64,000 nucleotides of DNA from Eledone cirrhosa (GCA_964016885.1 CAXHJY010000114.1:118073-182072), one strand, 5' to 3'; numbered from the stretch's first letter, positions 32,252-62,614 are shown. Notes: generated from the letters alone by a model not told the origin. A program made the numbers and translations.

Positions 32252-34219
32252 CACTTATACTACTACTAATATATAAATATGGGGAATATATATGAAAAAA
32301 AGTTAAAATAGCCTTAGAATGGCGCCCGCAGTTTCAGTTTATCTTGTCGCAATTCAAGATTAAAATATTTTTTTCTGAAAAGACTTTGCTATGATCATCA
32401 TAGCAGCTGTTTCCGTGTTTGAGATTCCTACAATATTACTAAAATACATATATTTGAGCTGTTAGTATATTTGTAGCAATTTCGATACCTGTCCAAGTAA
32501 CTCTGATATAGTATGCATGCTTCTATAAATACTAAATATTGAGATAATGAAGTTATATTTCGTGTCTCAATACATATGAAAGACAAACGTGTTGATAGTA
32601 ATACCAGTATATCATTTTCGACACTTTGTTTGGGATTAACATCACATTGTGGAAATGTCCTTAGTGTGATACTTCACAAGAAGAAGAATTACTACTAGGC
32701 AGTCAAGCTTTCAACAAGAATGATGTTTACAAAATTTCTAATCGCTTTCATACCTCGGTATCTGTGTTAATAAGCAACTGCTGATGATGGATGATTACTA
32801 TCAAATACAAACACCCTTACACCAATACCGAAGGAGCTGAGAGTATAATCACAGTTATAATCACCCTATCACAGCGAGCTTATATGTAAATTTATTATAC
32901 ATAAACATATTGTATACGTGTCCATATACATCTTTATACTGAATCATAGTGTGTTAGTGCTATTGCTAATTAAAAATAAAACGGTGTAAAATACTGCTGT
33001 AGTTCTATTGAGGTGATTGGAGCCAGAGGTTTTAGCTCATCAGTGTATTATTTACAGTGAAAAAATAGCTACTATGCGATATTGCTATGTAATAATTTTG
33101 AGATGTAATATTGAGATGTAATAATTCTTACTTTATAATTCTAATTTTCTTATATTTTACATTTTTTTCGACATTTTAAAATGTTCATCCAATGGCTACT
33201 TGATTGTATTATATCTGGTTACTATACAAGATACATACACCGATCATTTCTACAGATATCTCCTACATTCGCCAGCAAGCAGTCAGTTCCATGTTATTGT
33301 TGCTGTCGTTCTTATCATTTGGCTAAAGCTGATCAATGAAAATGGAATGATTTTACTCACTGCGTTGTGGAGAGACGATAAAAATCTTGGAGTTCTGGTA
33401 ATCGAATTGAATTAAATTACCGCCAATAGAGAGCTTTGAACTACAGATCAAGAATTCTGGTCTCTTCATACCAAAGAAAAATCTCCAAATTAGTATACTT
33501 CTCTAAATATATTTTGCCGGCGTCCTCCTTTACAAGTTTGCTCGGATATCTGATGTAGTATTTTGAGGAAGGAAATACTAATGTAATTGTACAATAGAGA
33601 GTATTATGAAGTGGTTGGGGAACTAAAAATTCTAAATGTCTCTTTACATGACGTGTGAATTGTAAGCATGACGTGTGAATTGTAAGTATAAAATAGTTGT
33701 GAATAAATCAAGGATATCTGATTTATTACCTCTTGAGGCGAAAAAAGTGGATAAACGCTTAGGTAAAGGTGAGTTCGATTCCACAATTATGTATTTTTAC
33801 TGCCTCAAAGGGTTATATCCCCGATCTATTAATGACCTCCAAGTCATTATATTTTGTTAGATTTTGTATGTGTGTTTCTACTGCATCACTTGGTGCATCT
33901 CCATGTCTCTGAGTTGTGTGCAGCATTGTTTTCTTATCGGGACGACGGACGAGAGGGGAATAGAGACGCTTCATGTTAGTAGATCCGTCATGTTTTGCTA
34001 CTTGAAGTTTCTAATGTTATTTTAGTATTTCTTTCGTTGTGGGTTATGTAAGTTATTTTATTGGCTATTAATTTTGTAGAATCTGTGGTGTGTTGTACTA
34101 TGTTATTAGATAATTCTTTTATAGGGTATATTGTGTGTGTGGAAATTGTTTTACTTCAGTTATGCTATTAAATCGATAATATCTTACATGTGGGCTGTAA
34201 TACCATTATTATTATTATA

Positions 34220-34415
34220 GGATTGGCAGTGTCGGTAGAGGGTCTGACGCCATGCTTTGCAGCAAAGAGTTAGGGCCCTTTATGGTCTGAGTTCAAATCC
34301 CGCCGAGGTTCACTTTGCCTTTCATCCTTATGGGGTCGATAAAATAAAGTACCAGTAATACACTGGGTAATTGCTGGCCTTGTGCCAAAAGTAGAAACAA
34401 TTATTATTATTATTA
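34220..34415 (+). mobile_element. SINE family M, full length, flanked by (ATT)n; its tail starts the LINE cluster
   Basis: (ATT)n at 34205-34218 and 34400-34415; A/B boxes and core present. Confidence 0.9.
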
Positions 34416-37400
34416 GTCTGTTCGGACGTCTTTTTGCTCGCTCCCTGTAAGTCGCTTTATTTACCTGTTATAATTATTTGTGGTTTAATTTTTCTTGTTT
34501 TATAAGGAATATAAGCCCATGGTCTTTGCCATGTGAAGGGGAAAGTATAATATTTGGGCCTTTTGGCCCAAATATTTGAACAATATTTGAACATTTTACT
34601 TTTAAAAGATTAACAAAAAACATGGCTGAGGCACGCCCCCCAGCAATATGTCTGCTGTCGTGTGACAACGGCGTAAAAGTTGAGAGGAGGGTTACAAAAA
34701 TTGATACAACAAACACCACCACAAACAACATGAACAAAGACAACAATACTGAGAACACTAATTTTAAAAAACATTACCACACCAACTCCAACAATAACAG
34801 CGAAAACCAAAATACAGACGACAGAAAATAATGCCAACACTGAAAATATAAGTAATAGCAATGTCAATTATTTGGATTTGTCACATAGAAACATGGATTT
34901 CCCGCCATTACCAACGTCTACAGGTATTAAAGCCGCCACCCCCACCACCACAGCAACAACTGAAACAAAAAATAAATTATTTTCTCGTGATATCGAAATG
35001 GATTCTCCGTAAATCGACTCTTCCACGCCGAACGCCACCACTGGCACTACCACCACCACCACCACCACCACTGAAACTAAAAATAATAATAACAAAAATA
35101 ACAATAACAACAACAATAAGAATAACAACAACAACATCAACACTAGCGCAAAACCAAATGTGTCGTTTGCTAAAGCGGCAAACAAAAATGAAACGATTGA
35201 GGTTAGCCGGGAAGAATTGAATGGAGCCAAGCGAATGGTAGAACAATATGGTTACACGGTCAGCCTAACCCCACCAGCTAATACCATGAAGCATCGGCGC
35301 CTATGCAACGTGTCATATCGGACGATAAATATTAAAATGCACCGAGGGGAACGGGCATCCGAGTCCCAGATACAAAAAGCTTTGGGACATGTGTGGGCTC
35401 AAAAATATGGAACCGTGGACGTGTCCTTTGGAACCCCACAGGAAGCCAGAGAGCATTCCATGGCCCTATTAACAAGTGACGAGTTCACACTCGTCCCAAG
35501 CTATTGTGGTCAGAGGCTGGTGAGGAGCAGGGTGATCCAGGTTCCGCCGGCCATTGAAATTCCCTGGTTAATGGCTGCCGTCCTCGCCGACATAGTGGCC
35601 GACACTAAAGTAATTGAGGTGATAAAAGTAAAGCAGGAGAACTGGTCCGGACTGGGATGGAGCTCCTGATCCAAGCGGACCAAAAAAACATACAGGAAGT
35701 TCCGGAGGTGATAGACCTCAATGACGACAGCCACCTCACAGTAATCGTTGATGGTAGAAGGCCTAGGTGTGTGGTTTGTGGCGAAGGAACCCACCTAAAG
35801 GCTGTCTGCCCTCAGGCTAAAAAGTTGAGACCACCTCTCCTACCCACCCTAGTGACTCCACCATCTAAACCAGCAGCAGAAATGGCAGCAACAACTGTAG
35901 CAGCAACAACAGATGCAACTGTTACAGCAACAACCCCAACAACTGTAGCAGCAACAGTAGCAAAACCAACACCACCACCACCCACCGCGCCAGAATTAGC
36001 ACCAGCGCCTCCACCATCCACCACGCCAAAACCAAAACCAACACCCGTGGAGGATTTTCCACTCCCCGACCTGTCACAACCGGAGACAGGCTGTGACGAC
36101 GAGGAGGAGTGGGAAACTGTATCTGGAAAAAAGAAAAAAAAAAGAAACCAAAAAAAAAAAAATCCCCTTCCTTCCCCCTCCAAAAACAAAATGCAGGGCG
36201 AAACAAACAAACAAACAACAAAAAGTGAAGACAGCTATGTCACCACCCACACCAGCATCACCAGCCCCATCACCACAAACACCAACACCATCACCATCTT
36301 TAACCCCAACATCACCATCACCAACACCACAAAAATCACCAACAAGCGAAATAGAAACAAAACCCACAGCAAACGAAAAACAAAACAAAGCAACCAAAAC
36401 GATACACACTACACAGCATTAAATTTGAACACCCAATTACTACACTACATCCAACACAACACCAGCATCACAGAAAAAGACTATACAACACCCCAAAAAT
36501 TCACACCACCCCCACACATACAAATCACTTGCATCACACAGAAAACGTACACGACACTAAAATTAAAATTCCCCAAGGACATCGGGACATCGGAGACTTC
36601 CGACAAACACTCTCCAGGAAGATTTATATAGACATCCTTCCGGAGGGGGCCACAAACAGTGAGAAGGACGGAAACACCATCCTTCCCCCACAAGAAGTGA
36701 GGTAAGTGGGCTTGCCCAACTTTTTCCACTCCTTTTCAACATGACCGCGTGGTCTGGGGTCGTCATGGAAGCAGGGCAACCTGCTCAACGACCTCAGGTC
36801 TCTAAACATAGATGTGGTGGCCATCAACGAGACCAGCAACTCGGCACCTGGAGAGGCAAGTCCATGCCGTCCGACAGCGTCGTGGGGAGCTGGATGGAGC
36901 GACCGGTTAAATTGCTCGGGGTCTGGTTCGGTCCGGACCTCCAGATGGAGAAAAAGTGGAGCGAGGTGACGAGCAGGGTGGCCTCTCTCACCCAAAAATG
37001 GGCCGAGAGGAGGCTGTCTCTGAAAGGTCGGGCGGAGGTGGCGAATGGGTACATTGCGTCCGTCATCTGCTACCACCTGACCGTCGTATTTGCCCCCGCC
37101 CAACTCTGACCAAAATGGAGCATCTTCTCTTCCGCTTTTTGTGGAAGGGACGTTCTCCCATGGTCAGACGATCCATTTGCTGTCAACAACCGTTGCGTGG
37201 AGGACTAGGCATGCCGTGGCTGATGATGCGCAAACATGCGCTGAGGCTACGACTTCTCTGGTGCTTCCTTGACGCTGAACAGATGTGGTCGCCGTTTGCC
37301 AGACGCGCTTTTCTCCAGCTCGTCTCCTTGACAGAGCTGCAATATGGATCAGGAAAAGACCGAGGGATAGCGCTTGGAAGCTGGAATGTCTCCAAGCGCT

Positions 37401-38297
37401 CACGGCCCTCTACCAGCTGGGTACTAGTATCGGTGGAACATCCACCTCGGCGTTCTATAGAGGGCTAGTGGAGGGAAAGACAGACGACGTTCTTGGAGAG
37501 ACCCTGGGCGTCGAAGACGTTCAGCTATTCACTCTCTTCAAGAGAACTTTCAGACCGGGGCCTAAGGACATCTTCCAGAAATCCCTGGCCTGGCAGTGCT
37601 ACCGTGGAGCGTTGCCGGTTTGGGATAAACTCTACAGGCACGGAGGTGCAGTCAGCCGAGATGCGCGCAGGGTGACGAAACTGTCGTGCACGCACTCGTT
37701 CAGTGCCCGAGGATTGGTGACTTGTGGAGCTATGTCGAACAGCTGCTGTAGCATGTAGGACGGATCCGGTTATCGACTGAGTCCATTGTGCAGATAGCCC
37801 CGCCATCCTCCTTTAAAGAGGAGGAAGGGCAGGCAGTTTTCATCTGCCTGGTGGCCATGGCGAAAGAGATTGTGTGGTGGCCAACCCTGATTAACTTTTC
37901 CAAGTTTCACTTGAAGAGGAAAATCAGGGTGGAGAGGTAAGTGCTGTCTTCTAGTAAGCTTGTTGAAAGGTGGGTGAAAGTGGCGAGTGTGGTCCGAGTG
38001 AACGGGCCCGCTATGAGTATGCGCTGTAGACTGAGAAGTGGGAAAAGTGAGAGAAGGCGCTTGCCCTGGTGGTCAGGGTGACCGTGGCCTTTTTGTGTGG
38101 TATTTTGCCAAGAGTGACCCTCGGAGGTTTCCCCCTTTTTGGGGAATTTTTGTTGTTTGAATTTTTTTTAATTTCTAGCCCAATTTTGTTACAACCTGTT
38201 TACACGACCAAAACCTACTTTGTATCGTCCTGTACTCTTCTGTGCCGTCTCTCTAATGTTTTTCTTCGTGTCAGCCCTTGTGGCCAATAAAGAAACC
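34416..38297 (+). mobile_element. Tx1-B: retains the 5'UTR and a frameshifted ORF1 (34622-36705); ORF2 (ATG 36741) lacks ~2 kb of EN/RT
   Basis: VDGRRPRCVVCGEGTHLKAVC. ORF2 jumps at ~36835 from the early endonuclease to QLGTWRG. 3' end CCCTTGTGGCCAATAAAGAAACC followed by (ATT)n. Confidence 0.9.
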
Positions 38298-38311
38298 ATT
38301 ATTATTATTAT

Positions 38312-38375
38312 TAAAATAAAGTACCAGTAATGCACTGGGTAATTGCTGGCCTTGTGCAAAAAGTAGAAACAATTA
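38312..38375 (+). mobile_element. 3' fragment of SINE family M inserted in the Tx1-B (ATT)n tail
   Basis: taaaataaagtaccagtaatgcactgggtaattgctggccttgtgcaaaaagtagaaacaatta. Confidence 0.85.
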
Positions 38376-41300
38376 CAATCACAAGGCAAAGTAAAAAACA
38401 AGAGAAACAGCAGCAGCAGCAGCGACAGCGACAGTGTTAATGATATCAGCAGCAGCTGTCACTGGAACTGTAGTATCAGTAGTGAAAATTATAACGAAAA
38501 ATTTCCTGCGTTACAGAAATCAAACACCACTACCACCCCAATAACAACAATAACAGCAGCAACAACCACAAAGAACTGAAAAAACAACAACTATAACAGC
38601 AGCAACACAGAGGAAACAAACAAAAACACCGGCGACGGCAACAAAGACAAAACTAGTGACGTGTCAACACAAATCAAAACAAACACATCTTTCGCGAAAG
38701 CGACTAACAAGTTTGAGCAAATAAACATCACTAACGAAGAGATAAAACAAGCAAAGGTCTTGGTAAAAAAAAAACGAACACAGAGTAAGTCTCACCCGCC
38801 CAGCTGAGATAATAAGAAACAAACTTTTGTGTTCGGTCAGTTATCGCACGATCGGATCCAAATCGCGGCGAGTTGAACGGGCAACGGAGTTACAGATCCA
38901 AAGAGCTATGGGTGCCGTCTGGGCACAGAAAACATATATAGCCCGGGGATCAAGATATGGCACTGTGGATGTGCTCTTCGCTACACCAGAGGAAGCCGGA
39001 GCACACTCTATTGCACCACTCTGCAGCGACGAAATCACAATGATGCCCACATATTGCGGCCAGAGAGTCGTGAGGGTTCGAGTAGGTCAGGTTCCACCCT
39101 CAGTGGAGATGCCGTGGCTGACGGCAGCCGTCCTCGCTGACGTTGAAGATTCAACAACCATACTCAACGTCATACGAATAAGACAGGAAAATTGGACAGT
39201 GTCGGGGATGGAGCTAATCATCCAAGCAAACCACGAAAACGTTGATGCTATCCCCGATGTAATAGACATGGACGACGGCAGCCATCTACCCGGGACTGTC
39301 GAAGGTAGGCGCCCAAAGTGTCATGGATGCTGTGACAAGACGCACCTTAAGGCATTCTGCCCCAAAATTACCAAAACAGGCACGCGCTCACCCCTTCTCC
39401 CCACGCCGTGCCCCGCAACTGGAGCAGACAAACAATCAAAGAACACAGTGGCAGAAGAGAAATCACCATCCCCAACAACAAAAACACCATCTCTTCTACC
39501 ACCGACAAAACCAATGGGAAGCATACCCCTTCCTGATATAGCCAAATCGGACAAGGAGTGCGATGAGGCCGAAGAGTGGAGGACTATTCCAACAAAAAAA
39601 GATCTCGCCATACGGGCCATCTTCCTGGACCCAGAGGGTAAGCTGGTGGTGCTGGACGTGACCAGCGGAGACGGGCAAGCTTTCAGGCTAGTGGCCGTCT
39701 ATGCCCCAACAGGAGCAGGGCGGCCTGATTTCTTCCGGCGTCTGGAGACCTTTCTTGGAACGTCCCGCTCTTTAGTGTTAGTGGGCGACTGGAACGGGAT
39801 CTTAGACGCACACTGGGACTGTGTGGGATTCGCGGATAGGGGTGGAGGGTGCAAGAGTCTCACCAACCTGCTCAGGCGTTTTGAACTGTCTGACAGGTAC
39901 CGAATGGATTTCCCGAATGTGCCAATGTGGACTTGGACAAACCGCATAGGGTCACCCAGATCATATCTAGATAGAGTATTTTGTAGGGAAATAGATAGGT
40001 CTAGCATAGGCTGACCAAAATTCAAGATAGTCAGCTACACGGACCACAAATTCGTGATCTGTGTGCTTGACTTAGATAGGCTTCATAGACGAGGACCCGG
40101 CTACTGGAAGCTAAACGCGTCCTTACCAGCGTGCAAGGCCTACAGAGACCAGATTAGCGAACTAGTTAAGCGGGCGTTGACGGGGGCCATCGTCAACAAC
40201 AAGTGGTGGTTTGCTCTGAAAAGAGCGATTAGAATAGAATCCATTAGGTTTAGTAAGGCTTTAGCAATAGAGAAAAATAGAGCAGAGAACTAGTTAGAAA
40301 ATTAGACGAGGCGCTTAGCAGAGGCATTGCGACCGACGTGCTTGCGGCGAAATTGGCCCTTGACCAATTCTTCAATGCAAAGCACGAAGGCTGCGTTGTC
40401 AGAGCAAGAGTGCGTGCTCTCAGACACGAGGGAACGAAAGCCGTTCAATGGGCTCGAGTGGCGGAGGCGCGTCGTGGCAACAAAGCCACGATCCGGTCTT
40501 TGGTGGACCACGACGGGCGCATGCTACTCGATCCCGGGAAAATGCGTGAAGCTTTTCAGCGACACTTCGCTCAGCTGTTCGGGGGCAGCGGTGGGCCGGG
40601 TCGAGGGATGGACTTTAGTGTCTACCTCAACGGACTGCCGCGGCTCTCGGCCACTGAGGCGAAGTGTTGCGAACAGCCGATAACAGCCGCTGAAGTAAGG
40701 GAGGCAATGACTGGCTGCCCAAGGGGTAAATCGCCTGGTTAGGATGGTCTACCCTATGAACTTTACGTACAGATGCCAGACTTGTTCGGAGGCCTCTTGG
40801 CGGACGTCTACTGAAACTGGCAACAGAACGGGAGAATTCCCAGTTCTGTGAGCCGAGGAGCGGTGGCACTGCTGAGAAAGGATCCGAACAAGGGGGATAA
40901 CATAGATAATTTTAGGCTCATAACTCTGCTAAACACAGAGTTCAAGATTTTGGCCAAGGTGCTAGCAAAGAGGTTGGCGCTTGTCGTTGGTGGTCTAGTG
41001 GGAGAGGCACAGACATGCGCCATTCCCGACAGATCCATCCACGACAACCTCCCCTCATGCGATACATCGTAGAGAGGGTAGCTAGGGAACCTGGCAAGGG
41101 TGGGTCTTTGATCAATTTAGATCAATCGAAAGCCTTCGATAGGGTCGACCATCGTTACCTAGCGGCAGTCCTGAGGGCGGCTGGCTTTGGGCCCGTCTTC
41201 AGAGGCTGGATCGCTGCCATGCACAGCGACATCTGCTCTGTAGTGGGAGTGAACGGTCACATGTTGGAACCGTTCAACATCATGCGCTCGGTCCGCCAAG

Positions 41301-43011
41301 GATGTCCCCTCTCGTCCCTATTGTACGTATTGACTCTCGAGCCATTACTGCACAAACTGGAGACGTTGAGGGGCGTCCCGCGCGAACTAGGATGCGGAAG
41401 ATCCGTGTCAGCATAATCCGACGATGTCACCGTAGTGGTGTCGAACGCCAAACACATCGAGGCGATCGGCACTACACTAAGAGAATACGAAGCGGTGACA
41501 GGAGCAATGATCAACCAGGAAAAGTCAGTGGGCCTGCAGCTCGGCACCTGGAGAGGCAGGTCCATGCCGTCCAACAGCGTCGTCGGGCGCTGGACGGACG
41601 GACCGGTTAAATTGCTAGGAGTCTGGTTCGGTCCAGACCTCCAGACGAACAAAAACTGGGACGAGGTGACCAGCAGGGTGGCTTCTCTCATCCAGAAATG
41701 GGCCGAGAGGAAGCTATCCCTGAAAGGTCGAGCGGAGGTGGCGAATGCGTACATCGCATCCGTCATCTACTACCGCCTGACCGTCGTACCTTGTCCTAAG
41801 CCCTGGAGCGTTTGCTGTTTCGCTTCTTGTGGAAGGGACGCGCTCCGATGGTCAGGCGTTCCATCTGCTGTCAACACCCGCTACGTGGAGGGCTGGGCAT
41901 GCCGTGGCTGATGATGCGCAGACACGCGCTCAGGCTACGACATCTCCACCTCTTCCTCGACGGTGATCAGGTGTGGTCGCCGTTTGCTAGACGCGTTTTT
42001 CCCCAGCTCGTCTCCTTGACGGAGCTGCAGTCCTGGGTCAAGCGAAGACCGAGAGGGAGCGCTTGGAGACTGGAATATCTTCAGGCGCTCACAGCCCTCG
42101 ACCAATCGGGCAATGTGATCGGTGGAAACTCCACCTTGGCGTTCTATAGGGGATTAGTGGAGGGGAAGAGCGACGACGTACCTGGAGAAACTCTAGGCGT
42201 CGACGAAAATCAACTAGCCAATCTCTTCGGAAGGACTTTCGGGCCGGGGCCTATGGACAACTTCCAGAAATCCCTGGCCTGGCAGTGCTACCGAGGAGCT
42301 TTGCCAGTTCGGGATAAACTCTACAGGCATGGAGGTGCCGTCAGCCGGGCATGTCCGAGATGCGCGCAGGGCGACGAAACCGTCCTGCACGCACTCGTCC
42401 AGTGTGCGAGCATTGCTGACTTGTGGGTTTATGTCGAACACCTGCTGTCACGTGTAGGACGGATCCAGCTATCAGCTGAGTCCATCGTGAGGATTGCCCC
42501 GCCCCCTTCCTTTAGCCGGGAAGGGCAGGCAGTTTTTATCTGTCTGGTGGCCATGGCGAAAGAGATAGTATGGTGGACACGTTTGAAAGGGCTGAAGACG
42601 AGCACTTACCTCTTCGGTGATGCCCTGATTAACTTTTTCAAATTTCATTTGAAAAGGAAAATCAGGGTAGAGAGGGAAGTGCTCTCTTCCCAGCATTTTG
42701 TTGAAAGATGGGTGAGAGAAGCAAGTATGGCCCGAATGAATGGGCCTTCTCTGAGTATGTGTCTGTAAATTAAAGGTGGAAAACTGGGAGAGGACACTTG
42801 CCCTGGTGGTCAGGGCCACTGTGGTCTTTTAATGGGCTTTCTCCACAAATGTCCCTCGGAAGTCTCCCCCCTATTGGGGAATTTTTCTTTGTTATTTTAT
42901 TTCAACCTCCGTTTTTTTTACACGCAGAAATGCCCATTTGTACCGTCCTGTATTGTCCTGTACTGTCCTTAATGTCTACTTTATGTAAACCCTTGTGGTT
43001 AATAAAGAAAA

Positions 43012-49337: not shown

Positions 49338-52300
49338 CTCTTTGAGTCTCAGCCATTGATGTTAGTTAACTGGAAAGTTTGTTGAAATTAATATCAAGCC
49401 ACTACCTGCAGCCTCAGATATTCAGGACGTATCGGAGGGTTCTTGCTGTTCCCAGCAAGCATGCCTTTTGAAGCGTTCCAAAAAGCGTGAAGGGGCCAAT
49501 TTTCTTTAATCGTCGCTGGAAACTTTTTGAGATAGTATCTAGTGCGCCTATGACAATCGGGACCACTTTGACTTCATGGCAGTTCCAAATCCTTTTTACC
49601 TCCCACTTTAAGTCCTGGCATCGGTTAATTTTCTCCCTCTCCTTCTCTTGCACTCTCGTGTCGAATGGGCAGGCCACATCCACAATCAGGCACGATCTTT
49701 TTTCCTTGTCCAAAACCACTAGGTCAGGTCTATTGTGTTCCAGTTTCTTGTCCGTCTGTATCCTAAAATCCCACAGCACCTTCACCTGATCGTTTTCTAT
49801 CACCGACTCTGGCTTATGCTCATACCACTTCTCAGAATGTGGTGAATTGTTTACTTTGCATAGGTGCCAGTGGATCACCCTGCCCATCACATCATGTCTC
49901 CAGCCTTTATAGTGAGTCTGGGCTAGGTGTTTACACTCGGATACAATGTGAGCTACAGTCTTCTCTCTCTCTCCACAGATCCTGCACAGTGGGCTAGCCT
50001 CCCCCTTGTAAATATGGTGTTTCAACCACTTCGTTTTAAGAGCCTGCTCTTGCGCAGCCATTAGCATTCCTTCTGTAGCCTTTTTAAGGTCTCCTCTTTT
50101 CAACCAGTTCCATGTCTGTGGATCTCTGAATTCAGTTTTCTCAAAGAAGGTACTACGAAGGGATTTTTCATGAAGGCTGCTCTTTCTCCTTGTTGTTATT
50201 TCCTCCTTGGACATCCCCTGGTCTATTGTCCTCTCCTTCAGTACAGTTCTGAGCATTGGCTCCTTACTATCAGTCGCGTATTTGTGTAGGTTGTTTTTCT
50301 CCATCTGAACACAATCCTCTATGCTGATAAGACCTCTTCCACCTTCAGATCTCCTTAAGTAGAGTCTATCGACATCACTCCTCTTGTGGAACATGTTGTA
50401 GATAGTCAATAGTTTCCTTGTCTTTCTATCCATTTCTTTTTGTTCAGCAACATTCCATCTCAGAATTCCCGCACTGTACCTAATAATAGACAGCTCGGGA
50501 ATTTACTGCACTTATGGCATTCCTACTGTTCAGATGTGACTTTAATACGCTCCTTACTCTGCTAATGTATTCAGATTTTATCAATTCCTTCATTTTTTTG
50601 TTCTTGATGTCATCGGCATCCAGAACACCCAAATACTTGTATCCTTCCTCAGAGTCAATTTCCTTTATCATCTCACCTGTGGTACCTGGATTCCATTGCT
50701 TCTGCTCAATTTACCCCTCTTCATCACAAGGATTCCACACTTACTAATACCAAATTGCATACATATATCATTGCTGAAAATACGGACAGTGTCAACAAGC
50801 ACATCCAACTCCTCACTCTTCCCGAAGAGCTTCAGATCGTCCATGAAGAGGAGGTGATTGTTGGTAAGCTCTCCCTTTCCCAACTTGTATCCTGCTCTCA
50901 CTTTTCGCAGTATAATGGTCAGGGGCATCAGGGCAAGGACAAACAACAGAGGGGACAGACTATCTCCCTGGAAGATACCTCTCTTGATCTTCACGCCTCC
51001 CAAGGATTCTCAAGGGCTTCATACTTTTGCCCAACAACTGTCTGATGTTATCTGCCACCTTGAAGATCTCTAGGCTTTTGGTGATCCAAGAATGAGGCAC
51101 CATGTCAAATGCCTTTTTGTAGTCTATCCATCCCATGACAAGACCAGTGTGTCTCCTCTTGCAATTCCTCATTACCATCTTATCAATAAGTAACTGGTCC
51201 TTTGTACCACGGGACTTCTTTCGGCATCCTTTCTGTTCGTCCGGTAACAAGTTGTTTGTGTGGAGGTAATGGTAGATTTCCTCAGACATAATGCTTGTCA
51301 ACAGTTTCCACATTACGGACAGACATGTGATAGGTCTATAGTTGGTAACATCATTACCCTTGATTCGGTCTTTCATTACCAGAACTGTGGTACCTTTTGT
51401 CAACCACTCTGGTACCTCACCTGACATCAAGCAGTCATTTGAACATGGTTGTCAGTTTCGGGTGGAGGGATGTTATATTTTTAATCCAGTACCCCTGCAC
51501 ACCATCTGGGCCTGGTGATTTCCAGTCGGTTAGTTTTTGGCCTGCCCCTTAAGAGTTTCAACTGTGATACTCAAAACAGCCTGTTGGTGTGCCTGTTCAC
51601 TAATCTCCTTTTGTACTGTCTCAATCCACACTGCCTGGTCATTATGTTTAACATCCTGCTCCCATATTCCTCTTCAGAATGTCTTAGTTTGCTCCGCCTC
51701 AGGGATCAAGTCGTTGTCTCTTTCTTTCCCTTCAATCTGTCCAAACAACATCTTCCGGTTGTTGTCAAACATGCGGTTCTGTCTATACTGACTGACTCTG
51801 CTCTCGTATCGTCTAATTTTTGCACTCTTTGCTACAATGCGTTGCTTCAGTTCCTCTATGATAATATTTAGCTTTTTCCTCCTAGTTTTGTACTTTATTT
51901 CCAGTCTATTTTTAGTGTCTATGTTTTTTAGTGTCCCATTCAGTAGGGACTCAAGCTTTCCAATGTCATTTCTCATTTCCCTGATTTGACCATTCAGTCG
52001 TTTCTTCCACCAAGGTTCTGATCTTTCTTGTTTGTTGTTTCCTCTCGCTTTTATGCCAAGTAATTTCCACACCGCATTTGCTGTTGCTTTGAGGATATTG
52101 TTGCACTGGTGAAGGCTCCTCGCCTCAAGGTATGGGATGACTTTGTTTACCTTAGCTGTTGTTACTTTTAACTCTTTCCTGTCTACAAATCTTAGGTTCA
52201 TAGGTTTCTCACTATCATTGTTCAATTCATCTACCACTAAGTTTAGGATATCAACCATGTCCTAGCCCGTCAGCATTCATCTCCTCAATGGCCGTATCTC

Positions 52301-53689
52301 TGTTCCAGGTATTATTTATTTCAGCATTCAGATCATTGTCTGCTTCGGATGGTTCCTCCGTTCTCTCAACCTCTTCACCTTCATTTCCCACTGGCTCGTT
52401 TGCCTGGCATACTCCACTCTCCATTTCCAACCTAATCTCTCTGCTCAGTTCCTCCAGTTCCAGCTCGCTTATCCACCCATTAGCTCTTATTACCCGAGCC
52501 TGCCCGGCCAATTTTTGTTCCTCTAATTTAAATAGACCAATCTCGTTCCAGATGTTATGCATCCGTTTCCTATAGCCTTTCTCCTTGGGGTTACTCTTCA
52601 GGTAACATTGCATAACAATTCTATTCAATTCTTTCGTCCTGTTGGTTCTGGTCCCTTTCCTTCTTCTTCTTCCTCCGACACCAGCAGTATTTGGTTGCCA
52701 ACCAGGTCCCTGCTGCTGGGCCAGGGAGCACCTGCTGGGTGAGAGTCTGTCACATGACATTCCAGTCTCCACTTCACCGTTATTCGAACTGTTTAGGTTC
52801 GACATTTAAACACTCTTATCGAGGATTGGTGAATGTATGGTTACATAACCACCGGTGATTTCATCACCACCAGTGATTTTAGTGTGGCACTATCAGGCTG
52901 TAGACGAACATAAATAAACAAACAAACAAATATGTAAAAAAAAAACAAAAAAGAATAAGCATATGTTTCATTGTAATGTAATGTTTGAATGTCTGACTTA
53001 GTTTTTTTCCTTTTCCTTCTCTGTCTGTCTGTTTGTTTTTCTTTCCATTTTTCTTTTCTTTACGTTTTTCGTTGTTGCTGTGCTGTTTTGATTTTGATTT
53101 TTGGTTTTTTGATTTTTTGACCGGGTCGTCAAATCAGTCTATTTATATCTTTTGATGCCTTCCTCTTTTAGTGGGGACACTACGATGCATGTCTTAGTAG
53201 GAGGTAGTGGGAGAGAATAGCGGCGGAAGTGATAAAGAGGCAGTGGTGGTGGTGGTGGTGCTTTGCTAGTAGTACTTAGCAGGAGGTAGTGGGAGAGAAT
53301 AGCGGCGGTAGCGATAATGAGGCAGTGGTGGTGGTGATGTGATCGTAGTACTGTAGTGATGGTGTTGAAGTTGAAGTAGAAATAGAAGTTGAGGTAACTT
53401 GACTAGAGTTTTTGGCGTGGTAGTGGTGATGGTGGCGGTGGTGGTGTTGGTGGTGAATTTATTTGCTTGTCTGTCCACTTAGCCATTTAACTATTTAGCC
53501 ATTTTGCCATTTTCCTCTTTTTCGACTATAACATTTCTGATCCAAAATTAAATATTAAATATTGGGGCCTTATGCCGTAAAGTGATGCGTTATGGCTTGC
53601 TGAGGGTAAAAACTGTAATCTTATATTTCATTTGTAATAAGAATTATTCTATCACAGTTGTTTTAAATAAGTAAAAATCCTTTAAATAA
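49338..53689 (-). mobile_element. R4-clade (Dong-like) RLE non-LTR retrotransposon, family 1; full-length, frameshifted ORF 52805-49414
   Basis: R4-type N-terminus (CYLKS..GYRKRM..W..QKLAGQAR), [40 protein letters not shown] and NRPDLV..DVACP..EK. The 3' end runs into (TAA)n. Confidence 0.9.
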
Positions 53690-53716
53690 GTAATAATAAT
53701 AATTATTATTATTATT

Positions 53717-56700
53717 AGAGTTGCATTTATCTTGCTTTATGTTCATACGAGTTATCACCAAGTCACAACCAGTGACCTCAAGAGACAACAAGGTCGGCCA
53801 TGTTTAAGAAAGAACATACATACTCACACATGCATCTTTAGTGTTTATACTTGTTATGTACTTATATTGACAGAATCTTCCTTAGTATATGGGCAGTTCC
53901 CATTAGTACTATCTTTTGTATTTCTCCTATACGCGGGTTTCCTGGGATTTGCGATAAGTAATCATTAGACCCCTTAGGTATCATTCCTAGAGCGCCTACA
54001 ACCACTGGTATTGTTTTAGTTCTCAATTTCCACATTTTTTCAATTTCTATCTCCAGGTCCTTATACTTGCTCAATTTTTCAAATGTTTTTATAGATACAT
54101 TCTTATCTATTGGAACGGACATATCAATTAGCAGGCATACCCTCTTTTTAAAGTCCTTCAGTATTATATCAGGTCTATTTGCATCTTATTTTTCGGTCTG
54201 TTTGGATGCTAAAGTTCCACAAGATTGAGATGTGATCTTTTTCAAGTATGGGAGGTGGTTGATGCTCCCACCAATTCTTTTGATGGGGCAGGTCAAAATG
54301 CTTACACATTATCCAATGTATGTATTGTGCAGCTCTGTCATGCCTGTTTAGGTATTCGGTTGGAGCTATAGGACTGCACATTGAAATTATATGGTCAATG
54401 GTCTCTGGTTGTTTTTTGCATACACGGCATAATGGGCTGCATCCATTTTTTATTATGTTGGCTTGGTAATTTTTTGTTGGTAGACACTGATCTTGTGCCG
54501 ATATAATCAGTCCTTCAGTCTCCGATTTCAGTCCAGAAGATGCCAACCACTGATGGGTTAAAGTTTTGTCAACATCGGGATTGTTAGCTCGTTCTGGGTA
54601 TTTTCCATACAGAAGCTTTTCTTGCCATTTCTTAGCCAGTTTCTGTAGCAGTTCTTTCTTTGCAGTTACTTTTACCTGCTTTGCTTTTTCTGTGTTTTCC
54701 ATTTCAGCAGTAAATGGGACTTCTGAAATTTGTAGTCCATTACTGTATCTTTGTGCATCTTTTGTAATGGAATATGATCTTTTGGTACTTTCGTGTTTCA
54801 AAATGTGATTCCCTTAGATATGTGGATAATCCAATTGTTGCAGTTTTCAACGCAATGTCTAACTGGATTAACCCACGTCCTCCTTCTTTCCTAGGGAGAT
54901 ATATTCTATCTATGTCTGCCTTAGGGTGATGCATTCTGTGCATGGTTAAGAATTTTCGGATTTTTGTATCGAGCCTACGGATCTCTGTGCTTGACCAGTT
55001 GATGACATTGTAACTGTAGATTACTACTGGTATGGCAAGCGTGTTTATGGCATCGATCCTCTTCCTTGCATTCAATTCCGTTCTTAAGATTTCTCTTACT
55101 CTGCGGTAACATTCCTTCCTTATCCTTTCCCTCATTGTCGAGTGCTTGATTCCGTCTCCTTCACAAACACCTAGATATTTGTAAGTTTCCTCTTGATCAA
55201 GTTCTATTATCACATTCCCTCGATCAAGATTAATGTCTGAAATTTTCAGCAGCTTTCCTCTGGTGAACGTTGCTTTGGCGCATTTATCTAGTCCAAACTC
55301 CATTTTAATGTCATCACTGAACTGCTTCACAGTGGATAATAGCCCTTGCAATTGTTCATCATTTTTTGCAAATAGTTTCAGGTCATCCATGTAGAACAAG
55401 TGCTTAATGGTTTTGTCATAGACTTTATATCCATGTTTTGTTTCATTGAGCATTTTACTTAATGGTATAAGTGCGATGCAGAATAAAAGCGGTGATAAAG
55501 AGTCACCCTGAAAAATTCCACAATTAATATTAACTCCTCCAGCTTCCAGTGATTTTGTTTCACTATTCAAAAGGAGTGTCGTTTTCCATGTCTTCATACT
55601 GAACGACAAAAACCTCCTGACAACGGGAGATATTTTGAAAATCTCTAAACATTTTTCAATCCAACTGTGTGGCAAACTATCGAATGCTTTTTTATAATCT
55701 ATCCAAGCAATTGATAGATTTTTGTGTCTATTATGACAATCTTTCAGTATCATTTTGTTAACCAAAAGCTGATCCTTACAGCCATATGAGCCTCGTTTAC
55801 ACCCTTTCTGTTCAATGGGAAATAGGTCATTTGTTATCAGGTGGTCATATGTATATTCAGTTAGGACTGATGTTAACATTTTATACATTGTGGTCAAGCA
55901 AGTTATCGGTCTGTAATTTTTGGGATTGTTTGTCTCATCATTCTTCGGAAGCAGGAATGTAATGCCGTTAACTAGCCATGATGGTATCTTTCCTTAACTA
56001 TTTCATTGTAAAGTTGGGCTAACTGCTCATGAGACTCTGTGAAGGCATTTATCCAAACATTTTGTATTTTGTCTTTTCCTGGGGATTTCCATTTGCTGGT
56101 TTTTCTAAGAGCCAAACGCAACTGTTCAACTGCTATATTTTCCCATATTTGTTCCTCAAGGTGAGCTGTATCTTTCATTTGTCTGTCTATCCATGGGGCA
56201 TGTATATTATGAACTTTTTCTTCGGCCCAGATCTTTTCCCAGAATTCTTGCACTTCCTCCTTGGGTGGTATTGATTTAGCAGTTATTGTTGACTTACCAA
56301 TTTTTCTGTAGAAGTTTCTTTGGTTGTTTTTGAACATATTATTGTCCTTATAGAATCTAGATCGTTTTTCAAAGCGCCTTATACGAGCAGCTTTGGCCGA
56401 CACGTTTTGCATTATTTCTATCAGCATGTCTATCTCACTTGTTGATTTTATACTGTACTTTCTTTTCAATTTTCTAAGTTTAGTTTGTTTAACATGTTCA
56501 CCTACTTTATAGTGTCTTAAAATTTCTATGTCAGATCGGAGAAGGTTTATTTGGCGATTGATGTTCTCTTGCCAAGTAGATTTCTTGTGGGAATTCCTTT
56601 GTTTTTTCATTTTTACTCCACATAAGTGAGTGGTGACTTTAGCCGATGCATAATAGAGATGATTTAAATCAGTAATGTTTAGTTTGTTTGTGATGATAAT

Positions 56701-58525
56701 GTTTTTGAGAATTATGTTAGTCTTGTGTATTATCTTTTGGTTCTGTTTGGAGTTCTGGATCTTAGGGAGGGTGGCTTGTTGCCCCATGTCAGATTCTTTC
56801 ATTTTCATCCATTCGATCATAATTTCATCCTTCAAGTTGGCAAGTTCATTCTCATTCATTTCTTTATCATTTACGATCTCATTATTTTCATTTTGAGTTT
56901 CATCTTGAGCATGCACTCCCTCCACTTTTTCGATCCTTTCTTTAATTTGTTCTGTTGTCAGTGATTCCGCCCCAACCCTGGGATTCGAAATGTTACAATT
57001 TACCTCGTTTTCACTGACACATATTTCATTTTCCCTTCGCTGACTTTGTGCTAATAGCTTGATCTAATCAATTTCTATATCAGTTAGTAACTTTTTTTTT
57101 ACAATATTTCTTCGTATATTGGCTAGTTTGTTACTGTCAATATAGCCTCTGTTTTCGGGATGTTTCTTTTTCCAGTTGATATATGTCTGTTCTGTATTCG
57201 ATGTATTTGATGGGTAGTACATGGCAGTGTAGAAAGCCTCAAGGACTTCTTTATTATCTTCCCTTAACCATTTTTCTCTCTTTTTCTTTGGATTTCTTGG
57301 TGGTGAGCATGGAGGGCCAACAGTAGGAGTATTCCCGTCATGGGAGGTCTCCAGCTCCGAAGTGATGGGAAGGTTTGAACCATTAGCTGATTTTTCGACC
57401 CCAGTCTGGTTCCTCTCTGAGGGACGCGGCCTTTTTTGACTCGGGTGACGGCCGATCCGGTATGAGATTTTATCATTTGACATTTACTTTATTTTGTCGC
57501 GTTTTATCCTTATCCGCCAAGGGGTAATCATTTCGTGTTACCCACTTCTAGGACGAGTGTCGACCAAGACTAGAGAGGTCGTCCTCCTCTAGAGACACGG
57601 CTATTCCCCGCCGGCCGCCATCCCGGCATTTCTTGGTCACGGGGTTTTCTTTTTTGTTGTTTTTTAAATTGTTATTATCATGAGTGGTTCCTTAATGTGA
57701 GTATTGCGTGGCTTAAGAATGAAATTATTATTAATAATATAATATACTTTTTGCTGAGGTTGCCTGTTATTGTTGTTGGCTATGTCGGTGGTGGTGCTAG
57801 GGCTTTTTCTATTGTTGGTGGGGAAGGCGGGAGCCAGCAGTGCCATAGTCGGTGACGTTTGGCCGGTGGCCGGGTCACTAAGTCAATCTATTTATATCTT
57901 TTGCTAGCCTCTCCCTTGTCTAGTGATACCGCCACCTTCCCCTTTCTTAAGTTAACAGAAGGTAATGGGGGAATAGTGGTGATAGCAATGAAGGAGTGGT
58001 GGCGGCGGTGATGGGATAATGGTAGCAATGATGGGTGGAGTGGTGGCGGCGGTGACTATAGCGATGGCGTTGTCGTTACTGAGTTTTGTTGAATAGACTG
58101 TAGTTTGTTTGATCTGTGTATCATTGCGGTTTGTCGCGTATGTTTAATATATGTGTTGACATATTTTCTTAATATTGGAATTAAACATTTTGTGAAAACT
58201 TGAGACAATAATTGTTTCTACTAATTATTATTATTATTATGCTGGGTGGTGGTGGTGGTGAAATTGCCGTTATATTTAGTGTACACAGAGGGGTGATAGG
58301 ATAGGTGGTGTATCTAGTTTGTGGTGTTAGTGAAATTGCTGTTATTTGGCTGTTCTATATAGTGTAGACAGAGGGGGTTTTTTCTTCCATTTATAACCAT
58401 TTTCGTTTTTGAATATAACATTTAAAATACAAAATTGAATATTTGAGCGATATAACAGGATATTATGGATCCGAATTTTCTGAGAGTTGAGTCTGGTGCT
58501 TTATGTATCATTTGTACTAAGAATT
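53717..58525 (-). mobile_element. R4-clade RLE element, family 2; full-length, disrupted ORF 57483-53862, ~1-kb leader
   Basis: KWLREDN..YF, WKSPGKD, YMDD, CRVC..H..C, RHD, RPDI..ID, EKLSKYKDL and GTAHILRK; (TTA)n on both sides. Confidence 0.9.
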
Positions 58526-58548
58526 GTTATTATTATTATTATTATTAT

Positions 58549-61043
58549 TTGCATTTATCTTGCTTTATGTTCATACGAGTTATCACCAAGTCACAACGAG
58601 TGACCTCAAGAGACAACAAGGTCCGCCATGTTCAAGAAAGAACATACATATTCACACATGCATTCTTAGTGTTTAGACTTGTGATGTACTTATATTGACA
58701 GGATCTTCCTTAGTATATGGGCAGTTCCCATTAGTACTATCTTTTGTATTTCTCCTATACGCGGGTTTCCTGGGATTTGCGATAAGTAGTCGTTAGACTC
58801 CTTAGGTATCATTCCCAGAGCGCCTACAACCACTGGTATTGTTTTAGTTCTCAATTTCCACATTTTTCCAATTTCTATCTCCAGGTCCTTATACTTGCTC
58901 AATTTTTCAAATGTTTTTATAGATACATTCTTGTCTATTGGAACAGACATCAATTAGCAGGCATACCCTCTTTTTAAAGTCCTTCAATGTTATATCAGGT
59001 CTATTTGCATCTATTTTTCGGTCTGTTTGGATGCTAAAGTTCCACAAGATTGAGATGTGATCTTTTTCAAGAATTGGAGGTGGTTGATGCTCCCACCAAT
59101 TCTTTTGATGGGGCAGGTCAAAATGCTTACACATTATCCAATGTATGTATTGTGCAGCTCTGTCATGCCTGTTTAGGTATTCGGTTGGAGCTATAGGACT
59201 GCACATTGAAATTATATGGTCAATGGTCTCTGGTTGTTTTTTGCATACACGGCATAATGGGCTGCACCCATTTTTTATTATGTTGGCTTGGTAATTTTTT
59301 GTTGGTAGACACTGATCTTGTGCCGATATAATCAGTCCTTCAGTCCCCGATTTCAGTCCAGAGGATGCCAACCACTGATGGGTTAAAGTTTTGTCAAAAT
59401 CAGGATTGTTAGCTCGCTCTGGGTATTTTCCATACAGAGGCTTTTCTTGCCATTTCTTAGCCAGTTTCTGTAGCAGTTCTTTCTTTGCAGTTACTTTTAC
59501 CTGCTTTGCTTTTTCTGTGTTTTCCATTTCAGCAGTAAATGGGACTTCTGAAATTTGTAGTCCATTACTGTATCTTTGTGCATCTTTTGTAATGGAATAT
59601 GATCTTTTGGTGCTTTCGTGTTTCAAAATGTGATTCCCTTAGATATGTGGATAATCCAATTGTTGCAGTTTTCAACGCAATGTCTAACTGGATTAAGCCA
59701 CGTCCTCCTTCTTTCCTAGGGAGATATATTCTATCTATGTCTGCCTTAGGGTGATGCATTCTGTGCATGGTTAAGAATTTTCGGATTTTTGTATCGAGCC
59801 TACGAATCTCTGTGCTTGACCAGTTGATGACATTGTAACTGTAGATTACTACTGGTATGGCAAGCGTGTTTATGGCATCGATCCTCTTCCTTGCATTCAA
59901 TTCCGTTCTTAAGATTGCTCTAACTCTGCGGTAACATTCCTTCCTTATCCTTTCCCTCATTGTCGAGTGCTTGATTCCGTCTCCTTCACAAACACCTAGA
60001 TATTTGTAAGTTTTTTCTTGATCAAGCTCTCTCATCACGTTCCCCTGATCAAGATTAATGTCTTCAGCAGCTTTCCTCTGGTGAACGTTGCTTTGGCGCA
60101 TTTATCCAGTCCAAACTCCATTTTAATGTCATCACTGAACTGCTTCACAGTGGATAATAGCCCTTGCAATTGTTCATCATTTTTTGCAAATAGTTTCAGG
60201 TCATCCATGTAGAACAGGTGATTAATGGTTTTGTCATAGACTCTATATCCATGTTTTGTTTCATTGAGCATTTTACTTAATGGTATAAGTGCGATGCAGA
60301 ATAAAAGCGGTGATAAAGAGTCACCCTGAAAAATTCCACAATTAATATTAACTTCTCCAGCTTCCAGTGATTTTGTTTCACTATTCAAAAGGAGTGTCGT
60401 TCTCCATGTCTTCATACTGAATGACAAAAACCTCCTGACAACGGGGGATATTTTGAAAATCTCTAAACATTTTTCAATCCAACTGTGTGGCAAACTATCG
60501 AATGCTTTTTTATAATCTATCCAAGCAATCGATAGATTTTTGTGTCCATTATGACAATCTTCCAGTATCATTTTGTTAACCAGAAGCTGATCCTTACAGC
60601 CATATGAGCCTCGTTTACACCCTTTCTGCTCAATGGGAAATAGGTCATTTGTTATCAGGTGGTCATATGTGTATTCAGTTAGGACTGATGTTAAAATTTT
60701 ATACATTGTGGTCAAGCAGGTTATCGGTCTGTAATTTTTGGGATTGTTTGTCTCATCATTCTTCGGTAGCAGGAATGTAATGCCGTTAACTAGCCATGAT
60801 GGTATCTTTTCTGGCTCTTAACTATTTCATTGTAAAGTTGGGCTAACAGCTCATGAGACTCTGTGAAGGCATTTATCCAAAAGTTTTGTATTTTGTCTTT
60901 TCCTGGGGATTTCCATTTGCTGGTTTTTCTTAGAGCCAAGCGCAACTGTTCAACTGTTATATTTTCCCATGTTTGTTCTTCAAGGTGAGCTGTTTCTTTC
61001 ATTTGTCTGTCTATCCATGGGGCATGTATGTTATGAACTTTTT
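58549..61043 (-). mobile_element. R4-clade family 2, 5'-truncated second copy
   Basis: Closely collinear with ~53720-56220; (TTA)n on both sides. Confidence 0.92.
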
Positions 61044-61072
61044 ATTATTTATTATTATTATTGTTGTTGTTA

Positions 61073-61316
61073 TTCCTTGAATCTCAGTCATTGATGTTGG
61101 TTAACTGGAAAGTCCGTTGGATTGAATATCAAGCCACTACCTGCAGCCTCAGATATTCAGGACGTATTGGAGGGTTCTTGCTGTTCCAAGCAAGCATGCC
61201 TTTTGAAGCGTTCCAAAAAGCGTGAAGGGGCCGATTTTCTTTAACCATCCCTGGAAACTTTTGGAGATAGTCCCCAGTGCGCCTATGACAATCGGGATCA
61301 CTTTGACTTCATGGCA
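61073..61316 (-). mobile_element. R4-clade family 1, 3' fragment
   Basis: Matches 49338-49581; followed by (TTA)n 61317-61338. Confidence 0.9.
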
Positions 61317-62614
61317 TTATTATTATTATTATTATTATCATCAGTAGTAGTAGTTAGAAGTTTCATTCATTACATTCCGTAGCCATCATTTTTTGTCTCT
61401 TCATTATATTTTCTCCATCTCATAAAAGATACATTTCAAATACTTGCTGCTGTTACATTTTCGTTTGTTTGTTTTTTCCTATTTCTCCTAACCTTTCACC
61501 AAAATATCATGTTTTAAATCCATGCAATTGATATTATTAATGCACAGCTTCATTCACCTCTTGGCTTGCTTCCCGTTACTCTTTTAATTCTCTATAATAT
61601 TGACATTAACTTTTTAGATGTGTTTTCAGTTGAATTATTCCACAAACACATTCATATTATTTACATTTTAAAAATTATTTATTGACGCCTAATCTTGCCT
61701 TTTTGTAGCGTCAATTTAAATTTTATTCCCATGCTTTTGTTTGTTTCTCCTCATTCATATAAAGATGGCAATTTATTGAAGTATCGGCGGCTTTCTGATA
61801 GGTTTTCTCATCACCCTACAGTGGTAAGAGTTTCTGGTGTTTTGAGAATCCACATCACCTTCCATGACAACCCACAAGAATATATACTACGGGTTAGATT
61901 TGTTCTTTCATTGGATCTCTTCCTATCCCCTGGGGCAAAACCTTTTCAAATCTGTCCGCTGGATCAATGACACATCATCCACATGAGGTAATGCACTTCA
62001 GAAAAAACAGAAAGGGAAAACGAAAGAACGCAGCAATCTTTCATTGGTTGATTTGCAATTTGTTGTTACTTGAAATTTTAGAATTTTGATTGCCACAGAT
62101 ATTTGAGTATTATAAATTTTCACGGTTTATTAAGAATCATCTGCACATTATCACAATTGCTGGCTGTAAAGAGGACTCTTCAGTTTGACTGAACATATGG
62201 CATCTCATTGGTTGATTCGTGTTGTTAACCCTTAGCATTCAACAAACAATTGGTTACTCTACATGTAATTCTTTAAAACACCCATATACATTTACTCTCC
62301 TTCAAAAGACACACATGCACACCCACACACCCACACACACACATGCACACACACACATATATATATATACACATGTGCACGCACATATACACATGTGTGC
62401 ACACACCACCATATACAGTGCACTATATGCATATATGCAATATCACAGGCACTTTGTGTTAGTTTCTTAGTTTGACTATTTTTACTTTTCTTAATGTTAT
62501 CTTTAAAAACGTGGTACGGCATTTCATTGAACGAGTTTTCATCAGACATCATCGTAGTCATCATTCGACTCATCACAGTCGCCCATCCATTAAGAACCAC
62601 TATCTTAGTTCTAC

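What the first reader, a model, noticed from the sequence alone, without database searches (positions are those of the whole stretch)
34205..61338. 27-kb strand-polarised retroelement pile-up: APE-type Tx1 and RLE-type R4 LINEs share one (TTA)n target on opposite strands
Seen: about 11 insertions, nearly all separated only by (TTA)n spacers (34400, 38298, 43013, 49074, 49115, 49268, 53703, 58526, 61044, 61317). All Tx1 and SINE copies are on + and end in (ATT)n. All five R4-like copies are on - and end in (TAA)n. The two groups meet tail-to-tail at 49268-49337 and interleave at 49074-49121. None is nested inside another's ORF. Established: Dong (R4 clade) targets (TAA)n, and Tx1-clade Kibi/Koshi target (TC)n/(TTC)n. 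Inference: two unrelated endonucleases converged on the same duplex but prime from opposite strands, and each insertion's tail regenerates the target, giving a self-extending safe-harbour array.
Basis: partly seen in the sequence, partly recalled or inferred. Interest (0 to 1): 0.78.

Follow-up and report, generated by a model that had tools for sequence, protein, structure and literature searches.

The report
Two LINE clades share one microsatellite
Two distantly related kinds of jumping gene with unrelated cutting enzymes insert, across this animal genome, into the same simple ATT/TAA repeat and almost always face opposite ways, piling up in long mixed arrays, likely because each starts copying from the opposite DNA strand.

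Summary
Observation confirmed, and it holds genome-wide. The window holds 11 insertions: Tx1-like LINEs and SINEs on +, five R4/Dong-like copies on −, mostly separated by (ATT)n runs. Genome-wide, 2,144 of 2,240 exact heads of one Tx1 subfamily follow ATTATT directly (background 0.08%). In 404 sampled ATT runs, Tx1 heads obey the strand rule 137 of 137 times and R4 heads 161 of 163. The array is not unique: another 27.6-kb mixed array turned up on C1. Corrections: the SINE is not microsatellite-bound (2 of 29); nesting inside ORFs occurs elsewhere; the target seems split and duplicated rather than rebuilt by tails; safe harbour is untested. Opposite-strand priming follows from target-primed reverse transcription, but whether the endonuclease or RNA-tail pairing sets the polarity is open. 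Precedents exist for each ingredient: Dong in TAA, Tx1 in other microsatellites, Keno/Utopia, TRAS/SART, SaTar arrays. I found no paper on an (ATT)n-targeting Tx1 or on this combination. An intact sister Tx1 in the window targets (TATC)n with a 60% identical endonuclease, which makes the specificity question testable. New variant of a known kind.

The parts
34206..34217 (+). (TTA)4 run, left edge of the array
34218..34400 (+). SINE, full length; last ~30 nt resemble the Tx1 3' end
34401..34415 (+). (TTA)5 spacer
34416..38298 (+). Tx1-like LINE TxA: intact 5' end, broken ORF1, ~2-kb internal deletion near 36836 removing the endonuclease and part of RT
38299..38313 (+). (TTA)5 spacer
38312..38378 (+). 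SINE 3' fragment, joined to TxB by ATTA only
38379..43013 (+). Tx1-like LINE TxB, 5'-truncated and internally deleted near 39600; APE endonuclease remnant and RT
43014..43060 (+). (TTA)15 spacer
43061..49074 (+). Tx1-like LINE TxC, full length, frameshifted; ORF1 with CCHC knuckle, ORF2 APE endonuclease and RT
49075..49084 (+). (ATT)3 spacer
49085..49114 (-). 30-nt 3' end of R4D, followed on + by two ATT units
49120..49268 (+). 149-nt 3' fragment of TxB (98% to 42865-43013)
49269..49337 (+). (TTA)20 plus degenerate units; tail-to-tail junction of Tx1 and R4
49338..53690 (-). R4/Dong-like LINE R4D: single broken ORF (RT, CCHC, PD..D nuclease) and 5' leader 52900-53690
53691..53717 (+). (TAA)4(TTA)5; the TAA half is on the unexpected strand
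53718..58526 (-). R4/Dong-like LINE R4E, near full length with ~1.2-kb leader lacking its first ~90 nt
58527..58547 (+). (TTA)7 spacer
58548..61043 (-). second R4E copy, 5'-truncated, 96.4% to the first
61044..61071 (+). degenerate (TTA)n/(TTG)n spacer
61072..61316 (-). 245-nt 3' fragment of R4D
61317..61337 (+). (TTA)7 run, right edge of the array

Best explanation
This is one of many genome-wide arrays in which Tx1-like LINEs sit sense to (ATT)n and R4/Dong-like LINEs sit sense to (TAA)n of the same microsatellite duplex, likely because each family nicks and primes reverse transcription on the opposite strand. Step 1 (shown): both clades insert into ATT/TAA runs with fixed, opposite polarity. 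Step 2 (inferred from target-primed reverse transcription): the Tx1 APE endonuclease nicks the TAA-reading strand, whose 3' end can pair with the RNA's AUU end; the R4 C-terminal nuclease nicks the TTA-reading strand, which can pair with a UAA end. Step 4 (shown as clustering, inferred as cause): later copies of either clade land in those runs, building 10-30 kb mixed arrays. The SINE likely borrows the Tx1 machinery and needs only a minimal ATTAT site.
For: 2,144 of 2,240 exact TxB heads follow ATTATT versus 303 of 360,000 random positions. TxA 28 of 29 and TxC 28 of 29 heads follow at least 3 ATT units, none follows TAA; R4 leader set 26 of 29 follow TAA, 2 GAA, 1 neither, none ATT. 5'-truncated copies, which cannot carry a 5' repeat of their own: R4 60 TAA, 1 both, 12 neither; Tx 15 ATT, 0 TAA, 17 neither. 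Census of 404 distinct runs: R4 291 conforming and 3 not, Tx 208 and 2, SINE 74 and 5; heads only: Tx 137 and 0, R4 161 and 2. Mixed junctions occur both head-to-head (61) and tail-to-tail (24). The nucleases are unrelated: APE at the N terminus with L1 ORF2p as best solved match; C-terminal CCHC and PD..D motif with only R2 proteins as matches. The sister Tx1 family with a TATC tail sits in TATC repeats, 23 of 23.
Against: No nicking data. Truncated Tx copies conform less often (about 16 of 23 after setting aside library artefacts by eye) than full-length ones (96%), so part of the 5' run may come with the RNA. Exceptions exist: window 53691-53702, L279 (R4 and Tx on one strand, separated by an inverted-repeat element), L076, L079, L266, L311. 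Loci were picked as best hits to window copies, so junction-type counts are biased. Duplications cannot be measured inside pure repeats. The SINE-Tx 3' likeness beat 300 shuffles for TxA and TxC but not for TxB.
Confidence: 0.72

Rival explanations
1. The nucleases are only loosely selective for AT-rich DNA and may nick either strand; target and polarity are set by base pairing between the RNA's 3' repeat (AUU, UAA or UAUC) and the nicked strand. Convergence would then lie in the RNA tails, not the enzymes.
For: Tail and target match in every family examined (ATT, TAA, TATC). The predicted specificity hairpin differs by only two residues between the ATT and TATC families. SINE duplications begin at the ATTAT that matches its 3' end (16 of 29). 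RNA-target annealing is proposed for SART1 (PMC7265360, passages read).
Against: Swapping endonuclease domains between SART1 and TRAS1 switches specificity (PMC7265360, passages). The ATT and TATC endonucleases differ at 40% of positions. Some Tx tails are 1-3 units, little for pairing alone. The fixed ATT|GG head register suggests a defined second nick.
Confidence: 0.2
2. The ATT run before Tx1 heads is part of the transcript (read in from the upstream repeat) and is copied with the element, so flanks overstate targeting.
For: Runs before TxB heads are long (median 13 units versus 4 in random DNA), in fixed register, and more regular than at truncated copies.
Against: Truncated copies still follow the same-strand repeat far above background; 23 of 30 heads abut other elements of the community, 12 of them R4 heads. 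It may add to the 5' run but cannot explain the clustering.
Confidence: 0.05
3. The array is a local product of tandem or segmental duplication, assembly error, or passive accumulation in a low-recombination region, with the repeats being only tails.
For: The two R4E copies are adjacent and 96.4% identical; the window lies on a small 182-kb contig.
Against: Copies elsewhere match the second R4E 3' end at 97-99%. The same rule holds on many chromosome-size contigs, and a 27.6-kb mixed array lies at C1:35.282-35.310 Mb. Passive accumulation gives no strand rule.
Confidence: 0.03

Closest known systems
Dong (R4 clade): Bombyx Dong, DongAg, snail DongBg
   Same: TAA microsatellite target, known also from a mollusc (PMC3812793, passages read). 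Dong-R4 is listed among recently active LINEs in Octopus vulgaris (PMC13282606, parts 1-2 of 3 read).
   Different: Here two lineages only 41% identical in protein share the target with Tx1 families in opposite orientation; neither octopus paper, in what I read, describes target sites.
Microsatellite-targeting Tx1 clade: Kibi (TC)n, Koshi (TTC)n, crocodilian families in (TTCC)n/(TTTC)n
   Same: Two-ORF APE LINE whose tail matches its microsatellite target (PMC4494074, passages read).
   Different: Target (ATT)n, with sister families on (TATC)n and a third motif; not found in my 10 paper searches. Relationship to Kibi/Koshi was not tested by phylogeny.
Keno (Tx1, APE) and Utopia (RLE) in U2 snRNA genes
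   Same: APE and RLE elements reaching the same target in parallel (PMC4640811, passages read).
   Different: There the target is one site in a gene with identical 3' flanks, hence the same orientation; here a dispersed microsatellite, opposite orientation, and cumulative arrays.
TRAS1 and SART1 in silkworm (TTAGG)n
   Same: Two LINE families inserting into one simple repeat in opposite directions (PMC7265360, passages read).
   Different: Both are APE elements of one clade (R1, recalled) and telomeric; here the nucleases are unrelated and the arrays are interstitial and genome-wide.
SaTar MULE arrays of guayule and rice
   Same: Non-nested, mixed-family arrays built by microsatellite targeting (PMC5907723, abstract and most of the Discussion read).
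   Different: DNA transposons, no strand rule in what I read, different mechanism.

Membership tests
Tx1 clade LINE | Two ORFs; ORF2 with N-terminal APE endonuclease, RT and C-terminal zinc finger | tested here: met
   Pfam Exo_endo_phos, RVT_1, zf-RVT; open ORF2 of 1143-1152 aa in four TxB copies
Tx1 clade LINE | ORF1 with CCHC knuckle | tested here: met
   CX2CX4HX4C visible in TxA, TxB, TxC and TxG2 ORF1; Pfam zf-CCHC weak, E 0.008
Tx1 clade LINE | Belongs to the L1 group by ORF2 similarity | tested here: met
   Profile A1 hits human L1 ORF2p at E 3e-170 versus R2 at 3e-52; the profile includes database relatives
Tx1 clade LINE | RT phylogeny groups with named Tx1L, Kibi, Koshi rather than L1 proper | not testable with these tools
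   No named reference sequence was returned; the tree has none
Tx1 clade LINE | Target-specific insertion in a repeat (over 20% of flanks, criterion of PMC4494074) | tested here: met
   95.7%
R4 clade / Dong | Single ORF with RT, CCHC knuckle and C-terminal PD..D/ExK nuclease, no APE domain | tested here: met
   Open 1204-1216 aa ORFs in L315, L316; motifs aligned to R2 proteins; no Exo_endo_phos hit
R4 clade / Dong | N-terminal domain without R2-type CCHH fingers, with the R4-type conserved block (motif recalled, from no call) | tested here: inconclusive
   No zinc finger seen in the first 200 aa; R2 match starts only at residue 449; motif identity rests on recall
R4 clade / Dong | (TAA)n tail and (TAA)n target | tested here: met
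R4 clade / Dong | RT phylogeny groups with named Dong, R4, Rex6 | not testable with these tools
   Homologue searches returned unnamed proteins
SINE mobilised by a LINE partner | 3' end shared with the partner LINE | tested here: inconclusive
   About 30 nt alike; score above all 300 shuffles for TxA and TxC, not for TxB, TxG2 or R4
SINE mobilised by a LINE partner | tRNA-derived head | tested here: inconclusive
   No tRNA call by ARAGORN or Rfam; degenerate heads often escape these

The most novel reading that the evidence does not exclude
A genome-wide retroelement community in which an APE-type Tx1 lineage and two RLE-type R4 lineages independently evolved opposite-strand recognition of one trinucleotide duplex, seeded by a SINE riding the Tx1 machinery, while sibling Tx1 families sharing one 3' end have radiated onto (ATT)n, (TATC)n and a third motif through a few endonuclease changes or through RNA-tail pairing. 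Thousands of polarised arrays would be a major, undescribed organiser of this genome's repeat landscape and a ready natural series for reprogramming LINE target choice.
Probability: 0.4. Interest if true: 0.68.

Novelty: new variant of a known kind. Interest (0 to 1): 0.52.

Why it matters
How much of a LINE's target choice comes from its endonuclease and how much from RNA-target pairing is still open. This genome offers open reading frames of sibling Tx1 families with different repeat targets (endonucleases 60% identical, hairpin two residues apart) and an unrelated R4 enzyme on the opposite strand of the same target, so swap experiments are direct. It also gives a mechanism for local transposon hotspots in this genome, and it warns that ATT/TAA microsatellite markers here often sit between mobile elements.

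Tried and rejected
Local duplication of the two R4E copies: rejected. The 30-nt R4 piece at 49085 as a duplication made by the Tx fragment: unlikely, it differs from the R4D end by a substitution and a tail variant. Capture of a Tx1 5' region by the R4 leader: only low-complexity matches, rejected; a short shared motif near the heads was seen by eye and not tested. Two closely spaced opposite-strand TxB pairs on C1 as breaks of the rule: both are body-to-body fusions of arrays of opposite polarity, each half obeying the rule. Ribozyme or tRNA in the array: no Rfam match near threshold, no ARAGORN call. DNA search with the TATC family's 3' end returned nothing, not even the window copy, so it is uninformative. 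Single-sequence search of solved structures with the endonuclease was weak. Protein atlas gave only generic names. No RNA holder listed. Contigs of four runs were too short to show junctions in other organisms. The original Dong note was not held; Kojima and Fujiwara 2004 and Repbase entries were not seen.

Full report
Setting. The window is G000:C141:118073-182072, the end of a 182-kb contig in a 3.0-Gb animal genome. Its repeat make-up resembles that published for octopuses, where L1-Tx1 and Dong-R4 are listed as recently active (PMC13282606, parts 1-2 of 3 read); that is an inference, and I did not try to identify the assembly.

Observation. Microsatellite scan, self-comparison, translation and Pfam confirm 11 insertions between 34206 and 61337. 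On +: a SINE, TxA, a SINE fragment, TxB, TxC and a TxB fragment. On −: a 30-nt R4D end, R4D, two R4E copies and an R4D fragment. The stretches 52900-53690 and 57700-58526 are the 5' leaders of R4D and R4E, since they precede the same ORFs elsewhere.

Identity. The + elements have ORF1 with a CCHC knuckle and ORF2 with APE endonuclease, RT and zinc finger. A profile of these and database relatives matches human L1 ORF2p best. The − elements have one ORF with RT, CCHC and a C-terminal PD..D nuclease, and match only R2 proteins among solved structures. R4D and R4E are 41% identical in protein. In an RT tree of 25 rows (3 rows without anchor and one fragment left out) the two groups are split by the longest inner branch, 100/100. 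No named Tx1 or Dong reference was available, so clade names rest on architecture, tail and target.

Genome-wide target test. Tails alone prove nothing, so I tested 5' flanks. An exact 24-nt TxB head occurs 2,240 times, and 2,144 of these (95.7%) follow ATTATT directly. The same hexamer precedes 303 of 360,000 positions in 18 arbitrary 10-kb stretches. Among best hits, window copy excluded, TxA 28 of 29 and TxC 28 of 29 heads follow three or more ATT units and none follows TAA; the R4 leader set gives 26 TAA, 2 GAA, 1 neither and no ATT, of 29. For 5'-truncated copies reaching their 3' end, R4 gave 60 TAA, 1 both and 12 neither, after 14 internal breaks were dropped. Tx gave 15 ATT, 0 TAA and 17 neither, after 20 were dropped. 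By eye about 9 of those 17 are library artefacts, nested insertions or a duplicate row, and one is the two-unit window case, leaving about 16 of 23.

Polarity. In 404 distinct runs of at least four ATT units from all loci fetched up to then, elements abutting a run obey the rule 291 of 294 times for R4, 208 of 210 for Tx and 74 of 79 for the SINE. Counting heads only: Tx 137 of 137, R4 161 of 163, SINE 38 of 42. Mixed junctions are both head-to-head (61) and tail-to-tail (24); these counts are biased by my choice of queries. The rule also holds for nested insertions at short internal TAA runs (L236, L261).

Arrays. Of 30 consecutive TxB heads on C1, 10 abut a Tx tail, 12 an R4 head, 1 a SINE tail and 7 nothing in my library. 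In the first 100 listed heads, 12 of 99 gaps are under 12 kb, against about 1.4 expected for even spread (my reading). A 27.6-kb interleaved array lies at C1:35.282-35.310 Mb, and 2 of the 18 arbitrary stretches hit mixed clusters. The window is therefore a typical large array, not a special locus.

The SINE follows three or more ATT units in only 2 of 29 copies. In 16 of 29 a direct repeat of 6-21 nt starts at the ATT of its tail, 11 of them 9 nt or longer; 5 had repeats at other offsets and 8 none. So it needs only a minimal ATTAT site and brings no long tail. Its last 30 nt resemble the Tx 3' end, above 300 shuffles for TxA and TxC but not TxB. TxB tails run from 1 to 22 pure units. The target thus seems split and slightly duplicated rather than rebuilt by tails, though runs before heads are long (median 13 units versus 4). 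SINE or Tx copies do nest inside ORF1 elsewhere (L236, L280, L282). Safe harbour was not tested.

Mechanism. By target-primed reverse transcription (established knowledge), a copy sense to (ATT)n must be primed from the AAT-reading strand and a copy sense to (TAA)n from the TTA-reading strand. Opposite-strand priming follows; which component chooses the strand does not. I favour nuclease specificity aided by tail pairing (0.72) over tail pairing alone (0.2). Endonuclease swaps move specificity between SART1 and TRAS1, but RNA annealing also helps there (PMC7265360, passages).

A built-in test. The window's Tx1 at 1303-7022 has open ORF1 and ORF2, copies 100% identical on other contigs (3 of 4 fetched), and sits in TATC repeats in 23 of 23 copies. 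It groups with the ATT families at 100/98. ORF2 is 67-68% identical to TxB and the endonuclease 146 of 242. The segment I take to be the target-probing hairpin of L1 endonuclease (PMC1950540, passages; position assigned by motif) differs at two residues. The shared 3' motif occurs 20,933 times; by hand count the first 100 have 47 ATT tails, 34 TATC, 12 a third motif and 7 other.

Prior knowledge. Dong targets TAA, also in a snail (PMC3812793, passages). Tx1 families target TC, TTC, TTCC and TTTC repeats (PMC4494074, passages). Keno and Utopia show APE/RLE convergence on one site (PMC4640811, passages). TRAS and SART insert oppositely in telomeric repeats. SaTar elements build non-nested microsatellite arrays (PMC5907723, abstract and first part of the Discussion). 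Ten paper searches showed no report of an (ATT)n- or (TATC)n-targeting Tx1 or of polarised Tx1/Dong arrays; passages of PMC9115989, PMC4758252 and PMC13295347 added none. I did not see Kojima and Fujiwara 2004, Repbase or Dfam entries, or any supplement, and these could already note the target.

Verdict. Real, genome-wide and strongly polarised; each ingredient has a precedent, the combination and the ATT target appear undescribed. New variant of a known kind, interest 0.52.

Noticed in passing
window 1303-7022 (+), and 1-1261: Tx1-like element with open ORF1 (592 aa) and ORF2 (1153 aa), 100% identical copies elsewhere, inserted in (TATC)n in 23 of 23 copies; probably very recently active. A related TATC-tailed copy lies directly upstream.
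   Followed up: yes
G000:C1:4228984-4259408 and other rows: A third Tx1 tail type (12 of the first 100 matches) ending in a non-microsatellite motif; six copies lie about 6-7 kb apart on one strand, suggesting another target-specific family.
   Followed up: no
L260, L266 versus L262: R4D and R4E, 41% identical in protein, can carry the same ~700-nt 5' leader at 92% identity; Tx subfamilies also swap leaders and ORF1 (L238, L241). Recombination inside arrays may shuffle modules.
   Followed up: partly
L048, L049, L079, L161, L174: (TAA)n turns into (GAA)n right at R4 5' junctions, both full-length and truncated; cause unexplained.
   Followed up: no
L364-L366 (C1:46.02 Mb, C1:34.56 Mb): Arrays of opposite polarity fused body-to-body through deletions between inverted TxB copies.
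   Followed up: partly
L037, L078, L323: Head-to-head Tx/R4 junctions with both copies truncated and no repeat between them; possible deletion at insertion.
   Followed up: no
window ~25480-28980 (+): Probable Penelope-like element (RT followed by a GIY-YIG-like motif, label recalled) directly after the long (TA)n array at 23115-25466, which itself holds a ~1.3-kb tandem duplication.
   Followed up: no
window 14626-21129 and 30651-32252: Many SINE copies, some stacked head-to-tail; direct repeats of 18 and 16 nt beginning ATTATT at 14949 and 21019.
   Followed up: partly
L279, L260: An inverted-repeat (MITE-like) element sits directly after R4 (TAA)n tails.
   Followed up: no
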